NCBI GenBank assembly: GCA_027923505.1
Contig: BROI01000011.1
Location: forward strand, 620,001 to 684,000
DNA length: 64,000 nt
Direction of reading: 5' to 3'
Origin: Mayamaea pseudoterrestris
Taxonomy: Eukaryota
The notes below the pieces were generated by a model. That model did no database searches. It saw only the letters and a program-made list of their open reading frames with translations, and had not been told where the DNA came from. The stretch's first letter is position 1. Every line of letters begins with the position of its first letter. Shown piece by piece: positions 1 through 22,453 of this stretch. The position numbers and the translations under genes were made by a program.

Positions 1-108
1 TGTGACTCAACCCTGCACAGGATTAAATGCATACAAAACACAGGTAGCTAACCGTCTTGTCATAAGACGCAGGTCAACTCAACTCAATAATATTGTGTCA
101 TCCCCCTT
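1..108 (-). repeat. Polypurine tract (101-108, AAGGGGGA on - strand) and start of the 3' LTR (TGACACAATA... from 100, running off the window)
   Basis: The purine run lies just after the RNase H stop and directly abuts TG, the canonical copia PPT/LTR junction. Confidence 0.75.
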
Positions 109-1630
109 GATCTAGGCTTGTGACAACGATCGGTTTGCCGTATCGCCCTTCCAGAAAAGAATCGGAATGATCAGGGGTCGGAACGTGGCATGCGGCAAGA
201 ACTTGGTAAGAACGTCGGCGACGTTCTGCTTGCCGAAGATGTGCTCAAAATACAGAACATTGCTTGCAATGGCCTCGCGAACTCGATGGTAGGCGAGCGC
301 ATTGTGTCGCTTAGAAAGTGTGGAGTGCGGGATCGTTGACGACTTCTTGACACTTTCGTTGTCGCCGAACATCCAGGCTGGTCCACTCAAAGGAACTCCC
401 AACATGCGTAGGGAGTATCGGAAATCCATAATCTGTTCCGTCGCGGTCTTGGCGACGACGAATTCGGATCCATACGTTGCAGTCTCGACAGTATTCTGAC
501 GCTTGCAGAACCATTCGACGGGCGTCTGGTTCAGGAAATGCAGGACTCCCATTGCGGAACGTCCAGTAGTGTAATCATGGTACAGGTTCGCGTCCATAAA
601 GGTAGTTAGTTGCACAGGCTTGCCCTTCGGGATCGGCATGTTCCACGGAAGCTCTTTGCTTGAGTTGCCGGGACCGATTGCAACCAATCATACTTGGTAG
701 GTTCCCGTGATCGACGATCTTCGCGGAAACGAATCGCCGCATCAGGGTACTCAGCTAGGTAACCGCAGACTCGCTTGGCTCGGTCCAGGTGCCCGGGGGG
801 GGCGCAGCGGAAGCGCCCAAGTGTCATTACGGCACAATGAATGTCAAGTCGACGCAAGAGTCACTGCCCACTGGAGGGCACCGATAAGAGACTGAGTACT
901 GTTGAATGCCACGGGCATCCAGCTCTTCGGTAAGGTCAAGTTCGGGTGGTCCCGTTGTCAAGCGGTGACTTGCGCTTGCGTGGCTTCTCGCCAAACATGG
1001 TCTCGTAGTTCTTGAGCATGCGACCGACGTAGGTCTTTGCGCTCATGCAGAGGGTTCCATCGGGATCACGATAGAAGTCGGCTCCAAGGTGATACTTGAT
1101 GTCGCCGTCCTTCAACTTGTACTTGTACTTCTCTTTGAGGAGGTCCGTGAAGGCTTGTGGATCTTTCATGGCCATAGCCAGATCGTCGACGAACACGCCG
1201 ACGTACTCGTAGTGAGTGCCACAGTCTTTCATCCAGACGCCAGGATCCGCGAGCTTTGGTAGAATCCAATGTCGCGGAGTGTGTCGGCAAAGTGCTCATA
1301 TGCCAACGCGCCGCCAGAAGTGCGCAACCGTTATAGTGCCTTGTAGATGACCAAGGTATGGCCTTCCAATGGTCCAAACTCGGGACCGGCAACAATGTAG
1401 AGCCTTTTCCTTGGTCTTGGCCTCGAGGTAAAGCGTTACCGACATCGGCAGCCCAAAACTTGAGGTCGTTCAGTTCAGCTAACAGTGCTATGGTTCGAAT
1501 GCTTCGCATAGATACAACGCCGGAGTAGGCGGAGTCTTTGGCGGAGCGGTCAGATGTCCCCCGGGCGAACAGTCGGGCCTTACGTCGAGATCGTTCTTGC
1601 AGTCGAAAACAAGATGCGCATTGACACGAA
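1..1630 (-). mobile_element. Degenerate, 5'-truncated Ty1/copia LTR retrotransposon (RT + RNase H + PPT + start of 3' LTR)
   Basis: Minus-strand frames give copia RT motifs (HLVFDCK..L..KARL..GGH; WAADVGNA; YVGVFVDDL) and RNase H (FMDANLYHD..TGRS; VETATYGSEF; FGDNESV; KRHNALAYHRVRE; NVADVLTK), broken by several frameshifts. The stop at 112 is followed by a polypurine tract and a TG-initiated LTR. Confidence 0.93.
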
Positions 1631-6417: not shown

Positions 6418-7574
6418 GATGCGATCCAAATAACGAAGCAGCCGCACGCACTTGAAAATTAGCTACGGCAAGTCTACCAGAAAGCGAATGGAAGGCTGAG
6501 CATGATGTAGTCAAGCAAGAAATACACAAAATGGCTTATCAAATGTTAAGCTACTTCCAAGTAGTAGCTACCTCCGCAGATCTCGCTACATCTCGCAACA
6601 TAAACACCCAAATCGAATCGATCGGCAGCTTGGATCATATATGATCATCATCACAGCACATCAACAACAAAAGCACTACCGGGCTAACACATGACCAAAT
6701 CATTACTTGATCGCTTCTTGCCTTGATCACAAACTTACAATCCTTTGGAAAAATGATCGGAAATAGACAAACGTGTCGGCTGTGGGACGACGCCAGTGCG
6801 ATGAAAATCATACTCTGGCAACTGCCACGAAGACATTCAACGGCGACTCAGCATACCTCCTTCCGGGACATTTGTGTTGGCCACCTCGAAACGTCTCCGT
6901 CTTGACAAACTGCAAGTCCTGATCCTCGCGCTCGGGCAAAAACTCAATACTCGCTGCACTCACACGGGCGGAGTACTGACTCAATGGGCAAGCTCCGAGT
7001 TGGTTGCATCCTGCGCGGCAAACATAAAGTCAAGCACCCATCGAGGTGAGGCACCTCGTGCAGCTCGCACCCAAGCTCCTTGGCAGCGTCAATAATGCTT
7101 TTGCACCAGTGCCCAATCATGCAGCGCGATTGATTTAGCACGCCAATTCATCTTCATGGTCAATTTTGCTGATACGTGTCCTTGTGCCGGTGTTGAAAGG
7201 GTCTTTTGCTTTGCGAGTGCCGCAATTGTCGCGCTCATTTCTCATTTATGACAACCAACCACTGCAAGGTGAATTGCTCTTTTAATCATGGTAACAGCAA
7301 ACGCTCTGTTTCCTCCGATCACTTCATGTATTAGTTTATGACTGTTTTTCGACAAGAAGAGCGCTTGCAACCCTTTATAGTAGTCTTCTATTCTTCTAGT
7401 CAAGCATTGGTGATTGATTGTCGAATTATCGAGTGATTTTAACACGGACGAATGCGAGTCCCAGTACGATGTTGGGACTTGATTCAGTCGTGTGAAATAA
7501 TCCTTGTACCAATCGTCGTAGAATTCTACAAGGGATGGCCGGAGCGCGCGATCAGCTTGCACCACAAATCCACC

Positions 7575-8956
7575 ATGGGATTCATGAGACCTATGCATCT
7601 GAGTTTTCTCATCTTCGTATGCTGCATTGTCAGTTTACTTGCAGTAAGCAAGGCAGAATCAATCTACGAAAAGGATGCGAATGTAAATGTCATTTCAAGC
7701 CATGAACAGTTCGTCGCCGAAGTGGAGACATCCGATTCGATTTGGCTTCTCCATGTGTACTCGTCAGTGAATCCGAAGCAAGCTGCTGTCGTCTCTGCTA
7801 TCGCTAAATTAATGAAAGGAATATTTTCAGTGGCAGCTGTTGATATGGAGAGTTACCGAGATGCCGAAACACTCAAGCAAAAGTATTCTATCAGCTCGTC
7901 ATCGACCTTGCTCATTTTGGCCGACGACAAGCAAACGAAAGCCCACACCACATTATCGACAGGTGACTTGAATTTGCAGAAATTAACGGATTCTCTTGTG
8001 CAAGCTGCTGGACAAACCATTTCGGAGCGTTCTCGTGCGCTTAATGGTGCTTCAACCACCGATTCCAGCAACGGTGGTGGCCATGGCTCTAGCATTCTTG
8101 TCACATCAACGGACGCTACGTTTGCAAATGACGTTTTAAACAATCCTCTGGTTGTCATGGTTGCATTTACAGCTCCATGGTGTGGACATTGTAAGCGGCT
8201 TGAACCGGAATGGAACCAAGCGGCACAAATTTTGGCCAAGCAAGCATACGCTCGCAACGCGATTCGTTTGGTGTGGGTCGACGCGACGGAAAATCCGAAA
8301 GTCACGTCCAAATTTCAAGTCAAAGGATATCCAACGATTAAAATCTTTCCCGGAACAAACAGCAGCAGTGCGGTTAGTCACAACAAGAGGGCCACTGACG
8401 CCAAGGACTACACCGGCGAGAGAAATGCGGCAGGCATGGTGCAAGCTCTCTTGGAAGAAGTTGACAGGACGGGCATTCCATTGGAAATTGCCGAATTGAC
8501 AAGCGCTAAAGTATTGCAGGAGCATTGTGCCGGCTCGAACCATATTTGTATTCTTGCGGGTTTACCGCACATTGTTGAAAGTGGCGCTGACGGTCGACGC
8601 AAAATTTGGAAAAGGTTGGCCAAGTCGCCAAGGCGTTTCGATCTTCCATGGCATTTTCGTTCTTGTGGTTTGAAGGCACCTCGCAACCGGAGCTTGAAAG
8701 TACTCTTGAACTAACTTTTGGATTCCCAGCTGTAGTTGCATTGTCCATGGACCGGAAAGCGTATGCAGTGATGCGAGGAGCTTTCACGGAGAAGGGCATG
8801 GCGTCGTTTTTGCATTCATTGACAACAGGACGACAGATGACAGTTCATATGCAAAGTCTACCAACTATTGAAGCAGTCGAGCCTTGGGACGGACAAGACA
8901 CAGTGCCAGGGGAGGAAGAATTCAGTCTTGAAGATATAATGGGTGAAGATCTGTAA
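7575..8956 (+). CDS. Protein disulfide isomerase, P5/PDIA6-type, with an apparent 1-nt frameshift at ~8604
   Basis: Signal peptide; APWCGHCK thioredoxin site; P5-type b domain (CILAGLPHI..GADGRRK / FLWFEGTSQPELE..FGFPAVVAL; PWDGQD) split across two frames; acidic C-terminus ending GEDL. Confidence 0.88.
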
Positions 8957-9380
8957 TTGTTGCACGCGAAGAGTCGCTACACAAAGACTTTGAGTTTAAC
9001 ATTGCTTATCAAACACTTAAAAAACACTTTTAGACAAGGTCCGCTGACGCGGTTTGCATTGACCCTGGGCTCCATGCTATGTGTATGGTGGACTTGTGTA
9101 TAATAAATTCATCATAGGCTATTACTAATTGTTTGAATAAAGTCTACACAAGACGCTGTTGAGTGCCTCTTGCTTTGATGGGTTGTTAATCACTAGCCAG
9201 AACCAACTACCCATATATGTTTTTATCCCGTTCGTATCTCTTTGGGAACGACATTTGTGTGCCTTCACCTGCTTCCGTATCCCTTAAGCCACTTTGTGTG
9301 GCCAACAGACGGTGAGATGGACAACAACGACATTTTGAATCAATCAACCAGCTCAGCTGGGTGAATGAGGGCATTTGGAG

Positions 9381-9465
9381 GTCAAGACATCTGCAGGCTG
9401 AAACTGGTGAGAAGACTGAGACACCAGCCAGATATTCCATCTTGTTGCGCATCCTGAAAAAGTTG
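9381..9465 (-). repeat. Inverted, diverged partial copy of the 169-bp monomer
   Basis: GTCAAGACATCTGCAGGCTGAAACTGGTGAGAAG-ACTGAGACACCAGCCAGATATTCCATCTTGTTGCGCATCCTGAA matches the reverse complement of the monomer, with an internal deletion. Confidence 0.8.
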
Positions 9466-12400
9466 TTTAGGGTGCGCTACATGGTGGTATTCTTAGCTCA
9501 TGTCTTAGGGAATGGCAATGTGTTTGGTGACAACTTGTCACCAGTCTGTAGATGCCATGACTTTTGAACGCCTCTACGACAAGCCATGAATACACCCAAA
9601 TTACACCAGAATGGTGCCAACATCATTATTCAGTCTGCACCACAAAGTGGTATGCTTTGCACATGTCCCAGGGATTGGCAATGTATTTGGTGACAACTTG
9701 TCACCAGTCTCGGTCCGCAGAAGCCGTGACATTCAAACGCACCTACAGCAAGCCCTGTAGGTGCCCAAATCACACCAGAAATGGTGGCAACATCATTATT
9801 CAGGCTGCGCTACAAGATGGTAGGCTTGGCTGGTGTCTCAGGGGATGGCAATGTATTTGGTGACAACTTGTCACCAGTCTCAGCCCGCAGATGCCGGGAC
9901 ATTCAAACGCACCTACAGCAAGCCCTGTAGGTGCCCAAGTTACTCCAGAATGGTGGCAACATCATCATTCAGGCTGCACTACAAGATGGTAGGCTTGGCT
10001 GTTGTCTCAGGGAATGGCAATGTATTTGGTGACAACTTGTCACCAGTCTCAGCCCGCAGATGCCGGGACATTCAAACGCACCTACAGCAAGCCCTGTGGG
10101 TGCCCAAATTACACCAGAATGGTGCCAGCATCATTATTCAGGCTGCGCTACGAAATGGTTAGCTTAACTGTTGTCTCAGGAATTGGCAATGTATTTGGTG
10201 ACAACTTGTCACCAGTCTCTGCCCACAGATGCCATGACATTTAAACGCACCTACAGCAAGCCCTGTAGGTGCCCACATTACACCAGAATGGTGCCAACAT
10301 CATTATTCAGGATGCGCTACAAGATGGTAGGCTTAGCTGTTGTCTCAGGGAATGGCAATGTATTTGGTGACAACTTGTCACCAGTCTCAGCCCGCAGATG
10401 CCGTGACATTCAAACGCACCTACAGCAAGCCCTGTAGGTGCCCAAATTACACCAGAATGGTGCCAACATCATTATTCAGGCTGCGCTACAAGATGGTAGG
10501 CTTGATGGGTGTCTCAGGGCATGGCAATGTATTTGGTGACAACTTGTCACCAGTCTCAGCCCGCAGATGCCGGGACATTCAAACGCACCTACAGCAAGCC
10601 CTGTGGGTGCCCAAATTACACCAGAATGGTGCCAGCATCATTATTCAGGCTGCGCTACAAGATGGTAGGCTTGGCGGTTGTCTCAGGGAATGGCAATGTA
10701 TTTGGTGACAACTTGTCACCAGTCTCAGCCCGCAGATGCCGTGACATTCAAACGCACCTACAGCAAGCCCTGTAGGTGCCCAAATTACACCAGAATGGTG
10801 CCAGCATCATTATTCAGGCTGCGCTACAAGATGGTAGGCTTGGTGGGTGTCTCAGGGCATGGCAATGTATTTGGTGACAACTTGTCACCAGTCTCAGCCC
10901 GCAGATGCCGGGACATTCAAACGCACCTACAGCAAGCCCTGTGGGTGCCCAAATTACACCAGAATGGTGCCAGCATCATTATTCAGGCTGCGCTACAAGA
11001 TGGTTAGCTTAACTGTTGTCTCAGGGAATGGCAATGTATTTGGTGACAACTTGTCACCAGTCTCAGCCCGCAGATGCCGTGACATTCAAACGCACCTACA
11101 GCAAGCCCTGTAGGTGCCCAAATTACACCAGAATGGTGCCAGCATCATTATTCAGGCTGCGCTACAAGATGGTAGGCTTGGCTGGTGTCTCAGGGAATGG
11201 CAATGTATTTGGTGACAACTTGTCACCAGTCTCAGCCCGCAGATGCCGTGACATTCAAACGCACCTACAGCAAGCCCTGTAGGTGCCCAAATTACACCAG
11301 AATGGTGCCAACATCATTATTCAGGCTGCGCTACAAGATGGTAGGCTTGGCTGGTGTCTCAGGGCATGGCAATGTATTTGGTGACAACTTGTCACCAGTC
11401 TCAGCCCGCAGATGCCGTGACATTCAAACGCACCTACAGCAAGCCCTGTAGGTGCCCAAATTACACCAGAATGGTGCCAGCATCATTATTCAGGCTGCGC
11501 TACAAGATGGTAGGCTTGGCTGGTGTCTCAGGGAATGGCAATGTATTTGGTGACAACTTGTCACCAGTCTCAGCCCGCAGATGCCGTGACATTCAAACGC
11601 ACCTACAGCAAGCCCTGTAGGTGCCCACATTACACCAGAATGGTGCCAACATCATTATTTAGGCTGCGCTACAAGATGGTAGGCTTGGCCGGTGTCTCAG
11701 GGAATGGCAATGTATTTGGTGACAACTTGTCACCAGTCTCAGCTGGCAGATGCCGTGACATTCAAACGCCCCTACAGCAAGCCCTGTATGTGCCCAAATT
11801 ACACCAGAATGGTGGCAACATCTTATTCAGGCTGCGCTACAAGATGGTAGGCTTGGCCGGTGTCTCAGGGCATGGCAATGTATTTGGTGACAACTTGTCA
11901 CCAGTCTCAGCCCGCAGATGCCGGGACATTCAAACGCACCTACAGCAAGCCCTGTAGGTGCCCAAATTACACCAGAATGGTGCCAACATCATTATTCAGG
12001 CTGCGCTACAAGATGGTAGGCTTGGCGGGTGTCTCAGGGAATGGCAATGTATTTGGTGACAACTTGTCACCAGTCTCAGCCCGCAGATGCCGTGACATTC
12101 AAACGCACCTACAGCAAGCCCTGTAGGTGCCCAAATTACACCAGAATGGTGCCAACATCATTATTCAGGCTGCGCTACAAGATGGTAGGCTTGGCTGGTG
12201 TCTCAGGGAATGGCAATGTATTTGGTGACAACTTGTCACCAGTCTCAGCTCGCAGATGCCGTGACATTCAAACGCACCTACAGCAAGCCCTGTAGGTGCC
12301 CAAATTACACCAGAATGGTGCCAGCATCATTATTCAGGCTGCGCTACAAGATGGTAGGCTTGGCGGTTGTCTCAGGGCATGGCAATGTATTTGGTGACAA

Positions 12401-15400
12401 CTTGTCACCAGTCTCAGCTCGCAGATGCTGGGACATTCAAACGCACCTACAGCAAGCCCTGTAGGTGCCCAAGTTACTCCAGAATGGTGGCAACATCATC
12501 ATTCAGGCTGCACTACAAGATGGTAGGCTTGGCTGGTGTCTCAGGTTATGGCAATGTATTTGGTGACAACTTGTCGCCAGTCTCAGCTCGCAGAAGCCGG
12601 GACATTCAAACGCACCTACAGCATGGTGGCAACATCATCATTCAGGCTGCACTACAAGATGGTAGGCTTGGCTGGTGTCTCAGGTTATGGCAATGTATTT
12701 GGTGACAACTTGTCACCAGTCTCAGCTCGCAGCAAGCCCTGTAGGTGCCCAAATTACACCAGAATGGTGCCAACATCATTATTCAGGCTGCGCTACAAGA
12801 TGGTAGGCTTGGCTGGTGTCTCAGGGAATGGCAATGTATTTGGTGACAACTTGTCACCAGTCTCAGCCCGCAGATGCCGTGACATTCAAACGCCCCTACA
12901 ACAAGCCCTGTAGGTGCCCAAATTACACCAGAATGGTGCCAACATCATTATTCAGGCTGCGCTACAAGATGGTAGGCTTGGTGGGTGTCTCAGGGATGGA
13001 GCCCGAGGTGCCCAAATACACCATGTCATTTCAGGCTGCGCTACAAGATAGCTGTTGTCTCAGGGAATGGCAATGTATTTGGTGACAACTTGTCACCAGT
13101 CTCAGCCCGCAGATGCCGTGACATTCAAACGCACCTACAGCAAGCCCTGTAGGTGCCCAAATTACACCAGAATGGTGCCAGCATCATTATTCAGGCTGCG
13201 CTACAAGATGGTAGGCTTGGTGGTTGTCTCAGGGAATGGCAATGTATTTGGTGACAACTTGTCACCAGTCTCAGCTCGCAGATGCTGGGACATTCAAACG
13301 CACCTACAGCAAGCCCTGTAGGTGCCCAAATTACACCAGAATGGTGCCAGCATCATTATTCAGGCTGCGCTACAAGATGGTAGGCTTGGTGGGTGTCTCA
13401 GGGCATGGCAATGTATTTGGTGACAACTTGTCACCAGTCTCAGCCCGCAGATGCCGTGACATTCAAACGCACCTACAGCAAGCCCTGTAGGTGCCCAAGT
13501 TACTCCAGAATAATGGCAACATCATCTTTCAGGCTGCACTACAAGATGGTAGGCTTGGCAGGTGTCTCAGGGATTGGCAATGTATTTGGTGACAACTTGT
13601 CACCAGTCTCTGCCCACAGATGCCGTGACATTCAAACGCACCTACAGCAAGCCCTGTAGGTGCCCAAATTACACCAGAATGGTGCCTTGCCAGCATCAAT
13701 ATTCAGGCTGTGCTACAAGATGGTAGGCTTGGTGGTTGTCTCAGGGAATGGCAATGTATTTGGTGACAACTTGTCACCAGTCTCAGCCCGCAGATGCCGT
13801 GACATTCAAATGCCCCTACAGCAAGCCCTGTAGGTGCCCAAATTACACCAGAATGGTGCCAACATCATTATTCAGGCTGCGCTACAAGATGGTAGGCTTG
13901 GCGGGTGTCTCAGGGCATGGCAATGTATTTGGTGACAACTTGTCACCAGTCTCAGCCCGCAGATGCCGTGACATTCAAACGCCCCTACAGCAAGCCCTGT
14001 AGGTGCCCAAAATACACCAGAATGGTGCCAACATCATTGTTCAGGATGCGCTACAGGATGATTAGCTTAACTGTTGTCTCAGGGAATGGCAATGTATTTG
14101 GTGACAACTTCTCACCAGTCTCAGCCTGCAGTTGCCGTGACATTCAAATGCACCTACAGCAAGCCCTGTAGGTGCCCAAATTACACCAGAATGGTGCCAG
14201 CATCATTATTCAGGCTGCGCTACAAGATGGTAGGCTTGGCTGGTGTCTCAGGGGATGGCAATGTATTTGGTGACAACTTGTCACCAGTCTCAGCCCGCAG
14301 ATGCCGTGACATTCAAACACACCTACAGCAAGCCCTGTAGGCGCCCAAAATACACCAGAATGGTGCCAACATCATTATTCAGGCTGCGCTACAAGATGGT
14401 AGGCTTGGCTGGTGTCTCAGGGGATGGCAATGTATTTGGTGACAACTTGTCACCAGTCTCAGCCCGCAGATGCCGTGACATTCAAACGCCCCTACAGCAA
14501 GCCCTGTAGGTGCCCAAATTACACCAGAATGGTGCCAACATCATTATTCAGGCTGCGCTACAAGATGGTAGGCTTGGCTGGTGTCTCAGGGCATGGCAAT
14601 GTATTTGGTGACAACTTGTCACCAGTCTCAGCCCGCAGATGCTGTGACATTCAAACGCCCCTACAGCAAGCCCTGTAGGTGCCCAAATTACACCAGAATG
14701 GTGCCAACATCATTATTCAGGCTGCGCTACAAGATGGTAGGCTTGGCTGGTGTCTCAGGGGATGGCAATGTATTTGGTGACAACTTGTCACCAGTCTCAG
14801 CCCGCAGATGCCGTGACATTCAAACGCCCCTACAGCAAGCCCTGTAGGTGCCCAAATTACACCAGAATGGTGCCAACATCATTATTCAGGCTGCGCTACA
14901 AGATGGTAGGCTTGGCTGGTGTCTCAGGGAATGGCAATGTATTTGGTGACAACTTGTCACCAGTCTCAGCCCGCAGATGCCGTGACATTCAAACGCCCCT
15001 ACAGCAAGCCCTGTAGGTGCCCAAATTACACCAGAATGGTGCCAACATCATTATTCAGGCTGCGCTACAAGATGGTAGGCTTGGCTGGTGTCTCAGGGAA
15101 TGGCAATGTATTTGGTGACAACTTGTCACCAGTCTCAGCCCGCAGATGCTGTGACATTCAAACGCCCCTACAGCAAGCCCTGTAGGTGCCCAAATTACAC
15201 CAGAATGGTGCCAACATCATTATTCAGGCTGCGCTACAAGATGGTAGGCTTGGCTGGTGTCTCAGGGGATGGCAATGTATTTGGTGACAACTTGTCACCA
15301 GTCTCAGCCCGCAGATGCCGTGACATTCAAACGCACCTACAGCAAGCCCTGTAGGTGCCCAAATTACACCAGAATGGTGCCAACATCATTATTCAGGCTG

Positions 15401-18400
15401 CGCTACAAGATGGTAGGCTTGGCTGGTGTCTCAGGGGATGGCAATGTATTTGGTGACAACTTGTCACCAGTCTCAGCCCGCAGATGCCGTGACATTCAAA
15501 CGCCCCTACAGCAAGCCCTGTAGGTGCCCAAAATACACCAGAATGGTGCCAACATCATTATTCAGGCTGCGCTACAAGATGGTAGGCTTGGCTGGTGTCT
15601 CAGGGAATGGCAATGTATTTGGTGACAACTTGTCACCAGTCTCAGCTGGCAGATGCCGTGACATTCAAACGCCCCTACAGCAAGCCCTGTATGTGCCCAA
15701 ATTACACCAGAATGGTGCCAACATCATTATTCAGGCTGCGCTACAAGATGGTAGGCTTGGCTGGTGTCTCAGGGGATGGCAATGTATTTGGTGACAACTT
15801 GTCACCAGTCTCAGCCCGCAGATGCCGTGACATTCAAACGCCCTACAGCAAGCCCTGTAGGTGCCCAAAATACACCAGAATGGTGCCAACATCATTATTC
15901 AGGCTGCGCTACAAGATGGTAGGCTTGGCTGGTGTCTCAGGGCATGGCAATGTATTTGGTGACAACTTGTCACCAGTCTCAGCCCGCAGATGCCGTGACA
16001 TTCAAACGCCCCTACAGCAAGCCCTGTAGGTGCCCAAAATACACCAGAATGGTGCCAACATCATTATTCAGGCTGCGCTACAAGATGGTAGGCTTGGCTG
16101 GTGTCTCAGGGGATGGCAATGTATTTGGTGACAACTTGTCACCAGTCTCAGCCCGCAGATGCCGTGACATTCAAACGCCCCTACAGCAAGCCCTGTAGGT
16201 GCCCAATTACACCAGAATGGTGCCAACATCATTATTCAGGCTGCGCTACAAGATGGTAGGCTTGGCTGGTGTCTCAGGGGATGGCAATGTATTTGGTGAC
16301 AACTTGTCACCAGTCTCAGCCCGCAGATGCCGTGACATTCAAACGCCACTACAGCAAGCCCTGTAGGTGCCCAAAATTCACCAGAATGGTGCCAACATCA
16401 TTATTCAGGCTGCGCTACAAGATGGTAGGCTTGGCTGGTGTCTCAGGGGATGGCAATGTATTTGGTGACAACTTGTCACCAGTCTCAGCCCGCAGATGCC
16501 GTGACATTCAAACGCCCCTACAGCAAGCCCTGTAGGTGCCCAAAATACACCAGAATGGTGCCAACATCATTATTCAGGCTGCGCTACAAGATGGTAGGCT
16601 TGGCTGGTGTCTCAGGGGATGGCAATGTATTTGGTGACAACTTGTCACCAGTCTCAGCCCGCAGATGCCGTGACATTCAAACGCCCCTACAGCAAGCCCT
16701 GTAGGTGCCCAAATTACACCAGAATGGTGCCAACATCATTATTCAGGCTGCGCTACAAGATGGTAGGCTTGGCTGGTGTCTCAGGGGATGGCAATGTATT
16801 TGGTGACAACTTGTCACCAGTCTCAGCCCGCAGATGCCGTGACATTCAAACGCCCCTACAGCAAGCCCTGTAGGTGCCCAAATTACACCAGAATGGTGCC
16901 AACATCATTATTCAGGCTGCGCTACAAGATGGTAGGCTTGGCTGGTGTCTCAGGGGATGGCAATGTATTTGGTGACAACTTGTCACCAGTCTCAGCCCGC
17001 AGATGCCGTGACATTCAAACGCCCCTACAGCAAGCCCTGTAGGTGCCCAAATTACACCAGAATGGTGCCAACATCATTATTCAGGCTGCGCTACAAGATG
17101 GTAGGCTTGGCTGGTGTCTCAGGGGATGGCAATGTATTTGGTGACAACTTGTCACCAGTCTCAGCCCGCAGATGCCGTGACATTCAAACGCCCCTACAGC
17201 AAGCCCTGTAGGTGCCCAAATTACACCAGAATGGTGCCAACATCATTATTCAGGCGGCGCTACAAGATGGTAGGCTTGGCTGGTGTCTCAGGGGATGGCA
17301 ATGTATTTGGTGACAACTTGTCACCAGTCTCAGCCCGCAGATGCCGTGACATTCAAACGCCCCTACAGCAAGCCCTGTAGGTGCCCAAATTACACCAGAA
17401 TGGTGCCAACATCATTATTCAGGCTGCGCTACAAGATGGTAGGCTTGGCGGGTGTCTCAGGGGATGGCAATGTATTTGGTGACAACTTGTCACCAGTCTC
17501 AGCCCGCAGATGCCGTGACATTCAAACGCCCCTACAGCAAGCCCTGTGGGTGCCCAAATTACACCAGAATGGTGCCAACATCATTATTCAGGCTGCGCTA
17601 CAAGATGGTAGGCTTGGCTGGTGTTTCAGGGGGATGGCAATGTATTTGGTGACAACTTGTCACCAGTCTCAGCCCGCAGATGCTGTGACATTCAAACGCC
17701 CCTACAGCAAGCCCTGTAGGTGCCCAAATTACACCAGAATGGTGCCAACATCATTATTCAGGCTGCGCTACAAGATGGTAGGCTTGGCTGGTGTCTCAGG
17801 GCATGGCAATGTATTTGGTGACAACTTGTCACCAGTCTCAGCCCGCAGATGCCGTGACATTCAAACGCCCCTACAGCAAGCCCTGTAGGTGCCCAAATTA
17901 CACCAGAATGGTGCCAACATCATTATTCAGGCTGCGCTACAAGATGGTAGGCTTGGCTGGTGTCTCAGGGGATGGCAATGTATTTGGTGACAACTTGTCA
18001 CCAGTCTCAGCCCGCAGATGCCGTGACATTCAAACGCCCCTACAGCAAGCCCTGTAGGTGCCCAAAATACACCAGAATGGTGCCAACATCATTATTCAGG
18101 CTGCGCTACAAGATGGTAGGCTTGGCTGGTGTCTCAGGGGATGGCAATGTATTTGGTGACAACTTGTCACCAGTCTCAGCCCGCAGATGCCGTGACATTC
18201 AAACGCCCCTACAGCAAGCCTCCCAACCCAGATAGGTGCGCACAAGATGGTAGCTCGGTGTCTCAGGAATGGCAATGTATTTGGTGACAACTTGTCACCA
18301 GTCTCAGCCCGCAGATGCCGACATTCAAACCCCCACCAAGCTGCCACGCCTACAAGATGGTAGGCTGGGCTGGTGTTTAAGGGATGGCAATGTATTTGGT

Positions 18401-21198
18401 GACAACTTGTCACCAGTCTCAGCCCGCAGATGCCGTGACATTCAAACGCCCCTACAGCAAGCCCTGTAGGTGCCCAAATTACACCAGAATGGTGCCAACA
18501 TCATTATTCAGGCTGCGCTACAAGATGGTAGGCTTGGTGGGTGTCTCAGGGAATGGCAATGTATTTGGTGACAACTTGTCACCAGTCTCAGCCCGCAGAT
18601 GCCGTGACATTCAAACGCACCTACAGCAAGCCCTGTAGGTGCCCAAATTACACCAGAATGGTGCCAACATCATTATTCAGGCTGCGCTACAAGATGGTAG
18701 GCTTGGCGGGTGTCTCAGGGAATGGCAATGTATTTGGTGACAACTTGTCACCAGTCTCAGCCCGCAGATGCCGTGACATTCAAACGCACCTACAGCAAGC
18801 CCTGTAGGTGCCCAAATTACACCACAATGGCGCCAACATCATATTCAGGCTGCGCTACAAGATGGTAAGCTTAGCTGTTGTCTCAGGGAATGGCAATGTA
18901 TTTGGTGACAACTTATCACCAGTCTCGGCCCGCAGATGCCGTGACATTCAAACGCACCTACAGCAAGCCCTGTAGGTGCCCAAAATACACCAGAATGGTG
19001 CCAACATCATTTTTCAGGCTGCGCTACAAGATGGTAGGCTTGGCGGTGTCTCGCATGGCAGTGTATTTGGTGACAACTTGTCACCAGTCTCCCTGTGCGT
19101 GACATTCAAACGCCCCTACAGCAAGACCTGTAGGTGCCCATAATACACCAGAATGGTGCCAAAATCCGTATTCAGGCTGCGCTACAAGATGGTAGGCTTG
19201 GCGGGTGTCTCAGGTTATGGCAATGTATTTGGTGACAACTTGTCACCAGTCTCAGCCCGCAGATGCCGTGACATTCAAACGCCCCTACAGCAAGCCCTGT
19301 AGATGCCCAAATTACACCAGAATGGTGCCAGCATCATTATTCAGGCTGCGCTACAAGATGGTAGGCTTGATGGTAGTCTCAGGGGATGGCAATGTATTTG
19401 GTGACAACTTGTCACCAGTCTCAGCTCGCAGATGCCGTGACATTCAAACGCACCTACAGCAAGCCCTGTAGGTGCCCAAATTACACCAAAATGTTGCCAG
19501 CATCATTATTCAGGCTGCGCTACAAGATGGCAGGCTTGGTGGTTGTCTCATGGAATGGCAATGTATTTGGTGACAACTTGTCACCAGTCTCAGCCCGCAG
19601 ATGCCGGGACATTCAAACGCACCTACAGCAAGCCCTGTAGGTGCCCAAATTACACCAGAATGGCGCCAGCATCATTATTCAGGCTGCGCTACAAGATGGA
19701 ACTAAGCTTGGCTGTTCTCTTTGGTAATGGAAATGTATTTGGTGACAACTTGTCACCAGTCTCAGCCCGCAGATGCCGGGACATTCAAACGCACCTACAG
19801 CAAGCCCTGTGGGTGCCCAAATTACACCAGAATGGTGCCAGCATCATTATTCAGGCTGCGCTACAAGATGGTAGGCTTGGTGGGTGTCTCAGGGCATGGC
19901 AATGTATTTGGTGACAACTTGTCACAAGTCTCAGCCTGCAGATGCCGTGACATTCGAAGGCACCTACAGCATGCCCTGTAGCTGCCCAAATTACACCAGA
20001 ATGGTGCCAACATCATCATTCAGGCTGCGCTACAAGATGGTAGGCTTGGTGGGTGTCTCAGGGCATGGCAATGTATTTGGTGACAACTTGTCACCAGTCT
20101 CAGCCCGCAGATGCCGTGACATTCAAACGCACCTACAGCAAGCCCTGTGGGTGCCCAAATTACACCAGAATGGTGCCAGCATCATTATTCAGGCTGCGCT
20201 ACAAGATGGTAGGCTTGGCGGTTGTCTCAGGGAATGGCAATGTATTTGGTGACAACTTGTCACCAGTCTCGGCCCGCAGATGCCGTGACATTCAAACGCA
20301 CCTACAGCAAGCCCTGTAGGTGCCCAAATTACACCAGAATGGTGGCAACATCATCATTCAGGCTGCACTATAAGATGGTAGGCTTGGCTGGAATCTTAGG
20401 GGATGGCAATGTATTTGGTGACAACTTGTCAACAGTCTCAGCCTGCAGATGCCGTGACATTCAAAGGCACCTACAGCAAGCCCTGTAGGTGCCCAAATTA
20501 CACCAGAATGGTGCCAACATTATTATTCCGGCTGCACTAAAAGATGGTAGGCTTGGCGGTTGTCTCAGGGCATGGCAATGTATTTGGTGACAACTTGTCA
20601 CCAGTCTCGGCCCGCAGATGCCATGACATTCAAACGCACCTACAGCAAGCCCTGTGGGTGCCCAAATTACACCAGAATGGTGCCAGCATCAATATGAAGG
20701 CTGCGATACAAGATGGTAGGCTTGGCTGGTGTCTCAGGGGATGGCAATGTATTTGGTTACAACTTGTCACCAGTCTCAGCCCGCAGATGCCGTGATATTA
20801 AAACGCACCTACAGCAAGCCCTGTAGGTGCCCAAAGAATGGTGCCAGCATCATTATTCAGGATGCGCTACAAGATGGTAGGCTTGGTGGGTGTCTCAGGG
20901 CATGGCAATGTATTTGGTGACAACTTGTCACCAGTCTTTGCCTACAGATGCTGTGACATTCAAACGCACCTACAGCAAGCCCTGTAGGTGCCTAAGTTAC
21001 TCCAGAATGGTGGCAACATCATCATTCAGGCTGCACTACAAGATGGTAGGCTTGGCGGTTGTCTCAGGGAATGGCAATGTATTTGGTGACAACTTGTCAC
21101 CAGTCTCTGCCCGCAGAAGCCGTGACATTCAAACGCACCTACAGCAAGCCCTGTGGGTGCCCAAATTACACCAGAATGGTGCCAGCATCATTATTCAG
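9466..21198 (+). repeat. Tandem satellite array, 169-bp monomer, about 70 copies (~11.7 kb)
   Basis: Exact 169-bp periodicity (e.g. 14412, 14581, 14750, 14919). Near-invariant block ATGGCAATGTATTTGGTGACAACTTGTCACCAGTCTC. A few shortened units. Confidence 0.99.
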
Positions 21199-21367
21199 TT
21201 AATTAACACTAAGTGGCCATCTACCATCAAGCACCATACCTGGGGGCACTTTCGCTGCGATCATTCCATCCACTGTCGGCGTGTTGCGCTACGACATCTG
21301 AACGACATATCTGAATTTTCCATTCAGCTCCATGTGCATTGGCTCATTGGCTCGTGCAACCCATACT

Positions 21368-22453
21368 ATGACGAATGCAACTCCTGAAGTCGAAAAGTAC
21401 AAATCGGTTTATCTTCGCAACACTTCATTACAATTCACAGATAAGCGAGACTACCGCTTCATTGCCAGCAGTTTTAGACAAAGTCACGAGAACCGAGACT
21501 CATTGACCGTTGACAAGCAAAAGTCCAATATGATGCATGGTGCTTCCTGTCCGTTTCAATGCTTTGTTGAAAATGAAAGGGGGTTGAAATTTTTATTTAC
21601 ACCCGATTCTATCAATAAAAATTCGGCATTTTGGTTGGTGCCACCGACGAATGGTACTGTTTCCACCAGCATCAACAGTCCAAGTCAGGATGTGACACTC
21701 GTTATCGAATCGACGCTAGGCGCCTTTGTATTAGCAGGTTTTCTGCTAGAGAGTAACTCGAAAATGGTGCAAATTTATCTCCAGAAGAGCGAGGACGCTC
21801 CAAAGGAATATCTTACTACCTGCCGTGGCGTTGGAAAGCCCTGCAAAGCAACTTGTTCCATTCCAGGTGGTCCACGGCAGGTATGTCGGCTTTATCTTGA
21901 ACTCAAAAGTTTACAGCCAACCGATAGTGAGACTGCGATTGCACAAATAAGCTCTTTGAAATTAACAGCAAGAGTTACACATGTCAAGAAAGATGTCGCA
22001 GCATCGCCAGCCGGATTGATTGCTGGCTCGCTGCAAAGCCAACCTCCCATAGAATCTGCAGCTGCCTTGCCCAACACACTGTTTCAGAGCGATTCTTTGA
22101 ACCAAGAGAGTGTATCTTCGACCGTGGCTGTCATCTCTTCGATGATGCAAGCGACTGAAAAACGCATTGTTCACGCAGTCAGTCTGCAAGGATCGCAGCA
22201 AGAAGAGAAGCAGGAGCAGCGCTTAGAAGGGTTGACTCGTGCCTTAGCAGATCAACGACTCTGTATACAACAGCAGTCCCAGCTTCTTACAGTGCAAACG
22301 GCATTGCTTCATCAACAGGCGGAACAAATTGTGGAGCTCAAAAATGGACAAGCCTTTATACTACGCTCCATCAATCAGCAGCGCACAAACGCGGAACATG
22401 ACGCATTAGCAACAATGCCATCGGACAATTTGATTGCATTGGAGGATGGTTAA
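21368..22453 (+). CDS. Hypothetical protein, possible PAAT/C10orf88 (DUF4506)-like N-terminal domain plus Gln-rich coiled coil
   Basis: The segment LESNSKMVQIYL...EYLTTCRG recalls the PAAT motif (recalled, not searched). The C-terminal region is Q/E/L-rich. Confidence 0.6.
   Translation: MTNATPEVEKYKSVYLRNTSLQFTDKRDYRFIASSFRQSHENRDSLTVDKQKSNMMHGASCPFQCFVENERGLKFLFTPDSINKNSAFWLVPPTNGTVSTSINSPSQDVTLVIESTLGAFVLAGFLLESNSKMVQIYLQKSEDAPKEYLTTCRGVGKPCKATCSIPGGPRQVCRLYLELKSLQPTDSETAIAQISSLKLTARVTHVKKDVAASPAGLIAGSLQSQPPIESAAALPNTLFQSDSLNQESVSSTVAVISSMMQATEKRIVHAVSLQGSQQEEKQEQRLEGLTRALADQRLCIQQQSQLLTVQTALLHQQAEQIVELKNGQAFILRSINQQRTNAEHDALATMPSDNLIALEDG

What the first reader, a model, noticed from the sequence alone, without database searches (positions are those of the whole stretch)
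9466..21198. 11.7-kb, 169-bp satellite array inside gene-dense DNA: candidate centromere or chromatin-organising locus
Seen: about 70 head-to-tail monomers of 169 bp, roughly balanced in GC, sit between two ordinary genes with no flanking transposon debris. Known: monomers of nucleosome-repeat size typify satellite centromeres (171-bp alpha satellite, 178-bp Arabidopsis repeat), whereas the centromeres described in Phaeodactylum are short, low-GC and non-satellite. Inference: this may be a satellite-type centromere or another functional array not expected in diatoms.
Basis: partly seen in the sequence, partly recalled or inferred. Interest (0 to 1): 0.78.

Follow-up and report, generated by a model that had tools for sequence, protein, structure and literature searches.

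The report
Genome-wide 169-base satellite in a diatom
This tandem repeat is real but is not a single centromere marker: it is one of many arrays of an abundant, apparently undescribed and probably methylated satellite DNA scattered through a diatom genome, and whether any of the arrays acts as a centromere is untested.

Summary
The array is real: 70 head-to-tail 169-bp monomers (window 9463-21198), and its left junction appears in short-read contigs. The host is a pennate diatom. The array is not unique. Its 19-bp palindrome has 7,799 exact matches (at least 4.3% of the assembly), at 78 or more loci on 32 of 41 contigs. One 303-kb contig is 82% satellite. Eight unrelated families have units of 169-181 bp or multiples of that, and all are CpG-depleted; CpG sites in this family mutate about 7-fold faster, and a DNMT5-like gene is present. 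The palindrome is the most conserved 19-bp window, with almost no compensatory change. Best reading: a dispersed, CG-methylated heterochromatic satellite, this array being a silent island between genes (0.55). Centromere use remains open: at the largest blocks only (0.22), or at many arrays as in Tyba holocentromeres (0.15). A CENH3-like gene exists, and I found no low-GC centromere candidate, though that test was weak. I found no description in print. The scan noted this family before at other loci of the same genome.

The parts
9463..21198 (+). Array of satellite family A: 70 anchored monomers of 169 bp, mean pairwise identity 95.3% among intact monomers
9371..9461 (-). Inverted, degenerate partial monomer set head-to-head with the array start; it lacks one arm of the palindrome
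   Evidence: junction spanned by an X1 contig
11210..11228 (.). Example of the 19-bp palindrome (9-bp arms, 1-bp centre) carried once per monomer; the most conserved part of the unit
11264..11283 (.). Example of a second inverted repeat (7-bp arms, 6-bp loop); broken in other subfamilies, so not conserved
14426..18142 (+). Homogeneous core, 1-6 differences per monomer from the array consensus; monomers near both ends differ by up to 13
12550..13068 (+). Irregular monomers (139, 141 and 239 bp): real deletions or poorly polished long-read sequence
18143..18385 (+). Irregular monomers (128 and 115 bp) with scattered small deletions, probably unpolished sequence (inference)
7452..8956 (+). Left neighbour: thioredoxin/protein-disulfide-isomerase-like gene in two reading frames, ending about 500 bp before the array
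21332..22453 (+). Right neighbour: 373-aa ORF with no Pfam family above cut-off, starting about 130 bp after the array

Best explanation
The array is one interstitial island of the genome's dominant satellite (family A), a non-coding, CG-methylated, heterochromatic repeat with a nucleosome-length unit. Shown: abundance, dispersal, subfamily structure, CpG loss, a conserved palindrome, patchwork junctions with unrelated satellites, and retrotransposons inserted in arrays. Inferred: arrays grow and homogenise by unequal exchange and gene conversion; short multimers, probably as extrachromosomal circles, re-insert elsewhere by repair at short homologies, often into existing satellite; DNMT5 methylates and silences them; units of about 170-180 bp persist because they fit one nucleosome plus linker; the palindrome is held either by a dimeric sequence-specific protein or as a centre of gene conversion. 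On this reading the window's array is silent chromatin between two genes and does not load the kinetochore.
For: Abundance: 7,799 exact palindromes, at least 1.32 Mb or 4.3%, about 5% after correcting for 86% intact sites. Dispersal: at least 78 loci more than 20 kb apart on 32 of 41 contigs; 4 on this contig. Uneven spread: no family-A palindrome in the first 609 kb of C1 and no family-B motif in the first 605 kb, whereas C30 is 82% satellite. Methylation marks: CpG observed/expected 0.36 in the array against 1.08 in the rest of the window; transitions at the 8 CpG positions 11.7% against 1.8% at other C/G positions, in 369 monomers; all 9 family references have CpG o/e 0.08-0.36; a DNMT5-like gene is present. 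Array ends fall at many different monomer positions and share no terminal sequence, and the array-to-array junctions differ between loci. LTR and other retroelements sit in or against arrays. Dispersed euchromatic satellites and rolling-circle spread are known in animals (PMC10048060, passages).
Against: The palindrome is about 5-fold more conserved than other non-CpG positions (0.62% against 3.28%; rank 1 of 169 windows), which neutral turnover alone does not predict, and short dyad symmetries are a reported mark of centromeres (PMC5889037, abstract). No low-GC centromere candidate was found, so the centromeres must lie somewhere else, and 8 of 42 contig ends examined stop in family A. Array size and spacing on C11 resemble Tyba units. 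Methylation and silencing are inferred from mutation patterns and were not measured. Circles and re-insertion were not observed, and no empty site was seen.
Confidence: 0.55

Rival explanations
1. Family A (with B) is the centromeric or pericentromeric satellite of monocentric chromosomes. CENH3 sits on one large block per chromosome, mostly collapsed or broken in this assembly, and small arrays such as this one are spill-over copies. That the window's array is itself the one active site is about 0.06 of the 0.22.
For: C30 has about 150 kb of near-continuous A/B blocks. 13 of 42 contig ends examined lie in satellite, 8 of them in family A, and only 1 has a telomere, so large arrays break the assembly. 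Nucleosome-size unit, conserved dyad, CENH3-like gene, retrotransposons nested in arrays. No low-GC candidate at any of the 9 long AT runs.
Against: Known diatom centromeres are short, low-GC and lack repeats (10.1101/096016, passages; 10.1101/2021.11.10.468027, passages). Family B directly follows the one telomere seen, so large blocks may be subtelomeric. The low-GC search had little power against cores of about 500 bp.
Confidence: 0.22
2. The arrays are modular centromere units of a repeat-based polycentric or holocentric chromosome, as Tyba arrays are in Rhynchospora: several arrays of 2-30 kb per chromosome each load CENH3 and act together, and the window's array is one such unit.
For: 169-bp unit against 172 bp for Tyba, with discrete arrays among genes (10.64898/2026.01.17.700053, passages). 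On C11 family-A arrays lie at about 141-154, 629-641, 845-875 and 1,037-1,040 kb, gaps of about 475, 205 and 165 kb. 6-7 loci on each of the roughly 1-Mb contigs C12 and C13. The same conserved palindrome occurs in all subfamilies.
Against: Distribution is uneven: more than 600 kb without A or B at the start of C1, no window-type anchor between 1.245 and 2.71 Mb of C1 (that pattern misses the other subfamilies, and one variant pair lies at 1.306 Mb), and no hit yet on 9 of 41 contigs including C5 (1.24 Mb; sampling incomplete). Array sizes range from under 1 kb to over 30 kb, whereas Tyba array size is stable. Phaeodactylum has about one centromere per chromosome, and discrete kinetochores were described in Hantzschia and Nitzschia (PMC2111477, abstract).
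Confidence: 0.15
3. The monomer is a mobile or RNA-acting unit: the internal repeat of a non-autonomous DNA transposon or Helitron, or a structured RNA such as a retrozyme.
For: The + strand folds better than all 200 shuffles (z = -4.2). Several arrays have inverted junctions.
Against: No shared termini at array ends in 20 loci plus the window; the window's unique flanks match nowhere else beyond the monomer. No Rfam family reaches its gathering score. No covariation: 2 compensatory against 110 single changes in the palindrome; the second hairpin has 388 single breaks. The - strand folds only at z = -1.5.
Confidence: 0.05
4. The array, or its position between these genes, is an assembly artefact.
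For: Some monomers look unpolished, and contigs often break in satellite, so misjoins through arrays are possible.
Against: The left junction is spanned by an X1 contig with 0 differences; run X2, from another study, holds the flank and 6,996 contigs that lay on the stretch, nearly all over the satellite-like end. Monomers carry position-specific variants with a homogeneous core and diverged edges.
Confidence: 0.03

Closest known systems
Dispersed euchromatic satellite arrays (Tribolium castaneum, Drosophila 1.688, Pacific oyster; review PMC10048060, passages)
   Same: One family in large blocks and in short arrays next to genes; arrays mixed with other satellites and transposons.
   Different: Here in a 30.6-Mb gene-dense unicellular genome; no Helitron or Helentron carrier was found; all families seen share a unit of about 170-180 bp or a multiple.
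Tyba repeat-based holocentromeres of Rhynchospora (10.64898/2026.01.17.700053, passages)
   Same: Unit length (169 against 172 bp), discrete arrays among genes, spacing of a few hundred kb, retrotransposon insertions.
   Different: Array size and spacing are uneven here, and long stretches lack arrays; CENH3 binding is untested; conservation across species is not shown.
Monocentric satellite centromeres
   Same: Nucleosome-size unit, homogeneous core with diverged edges, conserved short motif or dyad.
   Different: 11.7 kb rather than hundreds of kb, several arrays per contig, genes within 130-500 bp.
Phaeodactylum and Fistulifera centromeres (10.1101/096016; 10.1101/2021.11.10.468027; passages)
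   Same: Same lineage (pennate diatoms); intergenic position.
   Different: Those are short, low-GC and non-repetitive; this array is 51% GC and tandem.
PpSat1/PpSat2 of the oomycete Phytophthora parasitica (PMC7290008, abstract) and the 98-bp subtelomeric satellite of Ectocarpus (PMC11541908, passages)
   Same: Satellite DNA in a stramenopile.
   Different: Sequence similarity was not tested. The Ectocarpus repeat is subtelomeric and its centromeres are retrotransposon-based; family A is largely interstitial.

Membership tests
Satellite DNA | Long head-to-tail arrays of a fixed unit | tested here: met
Satellite DNA | High genomic copy number | tested here: met
   7,799 exact palindromes
Satellite DNA | Non-coding | tested here: met
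   Unit not a multiple of 3; longest stop-to-stop frame inside the array 204 aa; no Rfam family at gathering score
Satellite DNA | Concerted evolution (arrays more alike within than between) | tested here: met
   Within window 95.3%; against other-subfamily arrays 86-88%; against same-subfamily arrays 92-95%, where the contrast is small
Monocentric satellite centromere | One array per chromosome | tested here: not met
   At least 4 arrays on C11 and 78 loci on 32 contigs; contigs are not whole chromosomes and misjoins are possible
Monocentric satellite centromere | CENH3 occupancy | not testable with these tools
   No ChIP data
Monocentric satellite centromere | CENH3 gene present in the genome | tested here: met
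   L045: divergent H3 with a one-residue loop-1 insertion and three substitutions at positions recalled as CENH3-diagnostic; best PDB hits are canonical H3
Monocentric satellite centromere | Short dyad symmetry or conserved protein-binding box in the unit | tested here: met
   9-bp-arm palindrome, rank 1 of 169 windows; families B-D have none with arms over 6 bp
Phaeodactylum-type centromere | Low GC | tested here: not met
   GC 0.51-0.52
Phaeodactylum-type centromere | Non-repetitive, unique per chromosome | tested here: not met
Tyba-type holocentromere unit | Discrete nucleosome-unit arrays interspersed with genes on all chromosomes | tested here: inconclusive
   Found on 32 of 41 contigs by incomplete sampling
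Tyba-type holocentromere unit | Even coverage of the chromosome and stable array size | tested here: inconclusive
   C11 gaps 165-475 kb but over 600 kb free on C1 and one contig 82% satellite
Tyba-type holocentromere unit | CENH3 on most arrays; line-like kinetochore | not testable with these tools
   No ChIP or cytology
Transposon-borne tandem repeat (MITE, Helitron) | Shared element termini around arrays | tested here: not met
Structured RNA or retrozyme | Known ribozyme family or covarying stems | tested here: not met

The most novel reading that the evidence does not exclude
This diatom has replaced the short low-GC centromere known from Phaeodactylum by repeat-based centromere units: several 169-bp satellite arrays per chromosome, marked by a conserved palindrome, each load CENH3. 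That would make it a polycentric or holocentric, Tyba-like system in a stramenopile, with the window's array one of the units.
Probability: 0.15. Interest if true: 0.9.

Novelty: new member of a known kind. Interest (0 to 1): 0.5.

Why it matters
Diatom genomes are described as lacking satellite centromeres, and a genome paper on the species named lists 0 satellite elements (PMC9724779, supplement table S3). Here at least 5.7% of a 30.6-Mb assembly is two satellite families (4.3% A plus 1.4% B, both lower bounds), with at least six more families of similar unit length. That gives a compact system in which to ask why satellite units converge on nucleosome length and what DNMT5 methylates besides transposons. 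It also makes a direct question testable with one CENH3 experiment: are diatom centromeres always short AT-rich DNA? A satellite-based or polycentric answer would change centromere evolution in stramenopiles and the design of diatom episomes. A negative answer leaves an ordinary, if unreported, satellite.

Tried and rejected
In all 149 loci it was single, none had a tandem repeat of period 60 or more, the longest alignment to the monomer was 34 bp, and the central base was A or T in 132 of 149. They look like coding coincidences (the in-frame peptide resembles a phage antirepressor motif, recalled). Rejected as relatives; absence is not shown.
Expression: no RNA holder listed. X20 was marked probably DNA. 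Rows with a small share that I did not lay are not used.
Telomere map: the pattern search returned 0 although C11 begins with telomere repeats, so it is a false negative; no telomere-to-telomere contig was identified among 42 ends.
Low-GC centromeres: 28 matches at 9 places for a 24-base AT run; none lies in an extended low-GC region (lowest 500-bp GC 0.35-0.46); none on C30 or in 102 C11 stretches (lowest 0.38). Low power against short cores, so inconclusive.
Common origin of families A-D: best z 1.2-3.4 against shuffles; only B1-B2 are related. Not established.
10-bp AA/TT periodicity: none in 5 of 5 families (p 0.16-0.79).
Carrier element: long ORFs inside C30 arrays are Copia (RVT_2), or have no Pfam or PDB match and look by recalled motifs like a non-LTR and a DIRS-type retrotransposon; none carries the satellite.
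Read depth is a sum over contigs and was not used as a copy number. PMC2111428 held no main text. The right junction, synteny with other diatoms and empty sites were not tested.
Full report
Observation. The array is as described. Tandem Repeats Finder reports period 169 at 9469-18220 and 18350-21198, with a damaged join. A conserved anchor occurs 70 times on the + strand, and 52 of 69 spacings are exactly 169. GC is 0.51-0.52. The neighbours are a thioredoxin/PDI-like gene ending about 500 bp upstream and a 373-aa ORF starting about 130 bp downstream. An inverted, degenerate partial monomer sits head-to-head at the left end. A contig of run X1, which may be the source of this DNA, crosses that junction with no difference; run X2, from another study, holds the flank and thousands of satellite contigs; one rhizosphere metagenome run (X9) holds one monomer-like contig. 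The top hit of a window gene is 100% identical over 82% of the query to a protein named Mayamaea pseudoterrestris, followed by other pennate diatoms, so the diatom assumption holds.

Genome-wide picture. The window is G000:C11:620001-684000, in a 30.6-Mb assembly of 41 contigs. The monomer's 19-bp palindrome has 7,799 exact matches, at least 1.32 Mb or 4.3%; 86% of 463 monomers keep it intact, giving about 9,000 monomers or 5%. Positions listed by the searches and fetched stretches fall into at least 78 loci more than 20 kb apart, on 32 of 41 contigs. This is a lower bound, because each search lists only part of its matches, and about ten loci are at contig ends and could be halves of one array. 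I sampled C11 with 60 stretches of 4.1 kb and 40 of 600 bp at about 9.7-kb spacing, plus both ends. Family A appeared at 141-154 kb, 845-875 kb and 1,037-1,040 kb besides the window. Continuity between neighbouring probes is not shown, and arrays under about 5.5 kb (left arm) or 9 kb (right arm) could be missed. The window's array is therefore one of at least four on its contig and probably not the largest. C30, read whole, is 53% family A and 29% family B in alternating blocks. Of 42 contig ends examined, 13 lie in satellite, 8 of them in family A, and 1 has a telomere, so contigs are not chromosomes and large arrays are under-assembled. The spread is uneven: C1 has no A palindrome before 609.8 kb and no B motif before 605 kb.

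Other families. Family-A arrays often abut other tandem families: B (172-181 bp, 2,470 exact motif matches), C (171), D (173), one of 174, one of 176, a 352-bp unit and a 506-511-bp unit. Only the two B variants are related by BLAST; alignments among A-D reach z 1.2-3.4 against shuffles. All units are about 170-180 bp or two or three times that. Array ends fall at many monomer positions and share no termini, and A-to-C and A-to-B junctions differ between loci. One Copia-like element abuts arrays in 3 of the first 20 array-centred loci, at different monomer positions, and also occurs once away from satellite on C11; targeting was not tested.

Anatomy of the monomer. Against each subfamily's own consensus, in 1,055 of 1,193 extracted monomers (138 dropped as frameshifted), the palindrome is the least variable of 169 windows: 0.62% against 3.28% at other non-CpG positions. 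None of its positions differs between subfamily consensuses, and there are 2 compensatory against 110 single changes. Monomers are related, so the p-values are optimistic, but the number of loci carrying any variant shows the same contrast (3.2 against 7.7 per position). The constraint is thus on sequence and not on pairing alone, which fits a dimeric binding protein; a gene-conversion centre would also fit, since neighbouring positions are conserved too. The + strand folds at z = -4.2, but the second hairpin is broken in other subfamilies and no Rfam family matches. CpG o/e is 0.36 against 1.08 outside the array, and CpG positions show 11.7% transitions against 1.8% at other C/G positions (369 window-type monomers of 463). 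All nine family references are CpG-poor. A DNMT5-like gene is present: its only PDB match is 7r76 at E 5e-40, which I recall as the Cryptococcus Dnmt5. DNMT5a loss removes methylation in Phaeodactylum (PMC9998398, abstract).

How it most likely works. Shown: an abundant, dispersed, non-coding repeat with subfamilies, a homogeneous core and diverged edges, and CpG decay. Inferred: growth by unequal exchange and conversion, spread by re-insertion of short multimers, silencing by DNMT5, and persistence of nucleosome-length units. The window's array starts at monomer position 119 and ends at 126, a whole number of units plus 8 bases, as integration of a circle at a short homology would leave; this is one case and only suggestive. 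I put this heterochromatic-island reading at 0.55.

Centromere question. Two centromeric readings survive. A CENH3-like gene exists (L045; diagnostic positions recalled). No Phaeodactylum-type low-GC region was found at the 9 long AT runs, on C30 or in the C11 sample, but that search is weak against 500-bp cores and covered a small part of the genome. The family could be centromeric only at its largest blocks (0.22). Or many arrays could act as units, as Tyba does: 172-bp monomers in discrete arrays, with spacings of 247 kb to 1.4 Mb in the species quoted (10.64898/2026.01.17.700053, passages). C11's gaps of 165-475 kb fit that; the long empty stretches, the wide range of array sizes, the one-per-chromosome centromeres of Phaeodactylum (10.1101/096016, passages) and the discrete kinetochores of Hantzschia and Nitzschia (PMC2111477, abstract) do not (0.15). 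The chance that this particular array loads CENH3 is about 0.2.

Novelty. Searches for diatom with satellite DNA, centromere and tandem repeat, with holocentric and CENH3, with telomere-to-telomere and centromeric, with satellite repeat (0 papers) and with satellitome (1 unrelated paper) listed no description of a diatom satellite family; I saw listings only for most hits, and the library lacks most subscription papers. A genome paper on the species named has no mention of satellite, tandem, centromere or telomere in its main text (PMC9724779) and lists 0 satellite elements in its repeat table. Fistulifera centromere candidates lack highly repeated elements (10.1101/2021.11.10.468027, passages; its supplements were not seen). 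Satellites are known in other stramenopiles (PMC7290008, abstract; PMC11541908, passages). Earlier notes of this scan describe the same family at other loci of this genome and leave the centromere question open; they agree but are not independent support.

Verdict. Real, abundant, apparently unpublished satellite; a new member of a known kind. Interest 0.5: the single-centromere reading is weakened, but satellite at several percent of a compact diatom genome, with a constrained dyad and no located conventional centromere, makes one CENH3 experiment worth doing.

Noticed in passing
G000:C30 (L061-L091), 303 kb: Contig is 82% satellite in alternating A and B blocks, with retroelements and a small gene island; satellite at both ends, no telomere. 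Could be a pericentromeric or subtelomeric block or a supernumerary chromosome.
   Followed up: partly
L021, L024, L027, L032, L036, L093, L309, L389: At least seven further satellite families with units of 171-181, 352 and 506-511 bp, unrelated in sequence to family A and all CpG-depleted.
   Followed up: partly
L029:1-1837, L031:1-2618, L036:4263-8001: The same Copia-like element abuts family-A arrays at three loci, at different monomer positions; another copy on C11 (L351) is not in satellite and is not CpG-depleted.
   Followed up: partly
window 1-1624: Fragment of a repeated Copia-type element, matching a reverse-transcriptase region on C30 and a stretch beside an array on C1.
   Followed up: partly
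L062:1-6411 (G000:C30 9.5-16.5 kb): Element with a 405-aa and a 1,519-aa ORF and a short-repeat tail inside a family-B array; no Pfam or PDB match, but reverse-transcriptase- and RNase-H-like motifs by eye suggest a non-LTR retrotransposon.
   Followed up: partly
L082:5978-8638 and L294: Element with DIRS-like reverse-transcriptase motifs (recalled) between A and B arrays on C30, with a related copy near the C11 telomere.
   Followed up: no
L092, L293, L295, L296 (G000:C11 1-39 kb): Telomere repeats followed directly by a family-B array, then long tracts of degenerate 6-8-bp repeats and more family B.
   Followed up: no
L339-L343 (G000:C11 449-492 kb): GC-rich 48- and 51-bp tandem arrays over tens of kb, unit a multiple of 3; possibly a giant repetitive protein gene.
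   Followed up: no
L045 (G000:C2 130 kb); L123 (G000:C2 18-20 kb): CENH3-like histone gene and DNMT5-like methyltransferase gene.
   Followed up: partly
window 8600-8720: The thioredoxin/PDI-like gene changes reading frame here: an intron or an assembly indel. Run X2 shows a one-base insertion at 8603; X1 does not.
   Followed up: no
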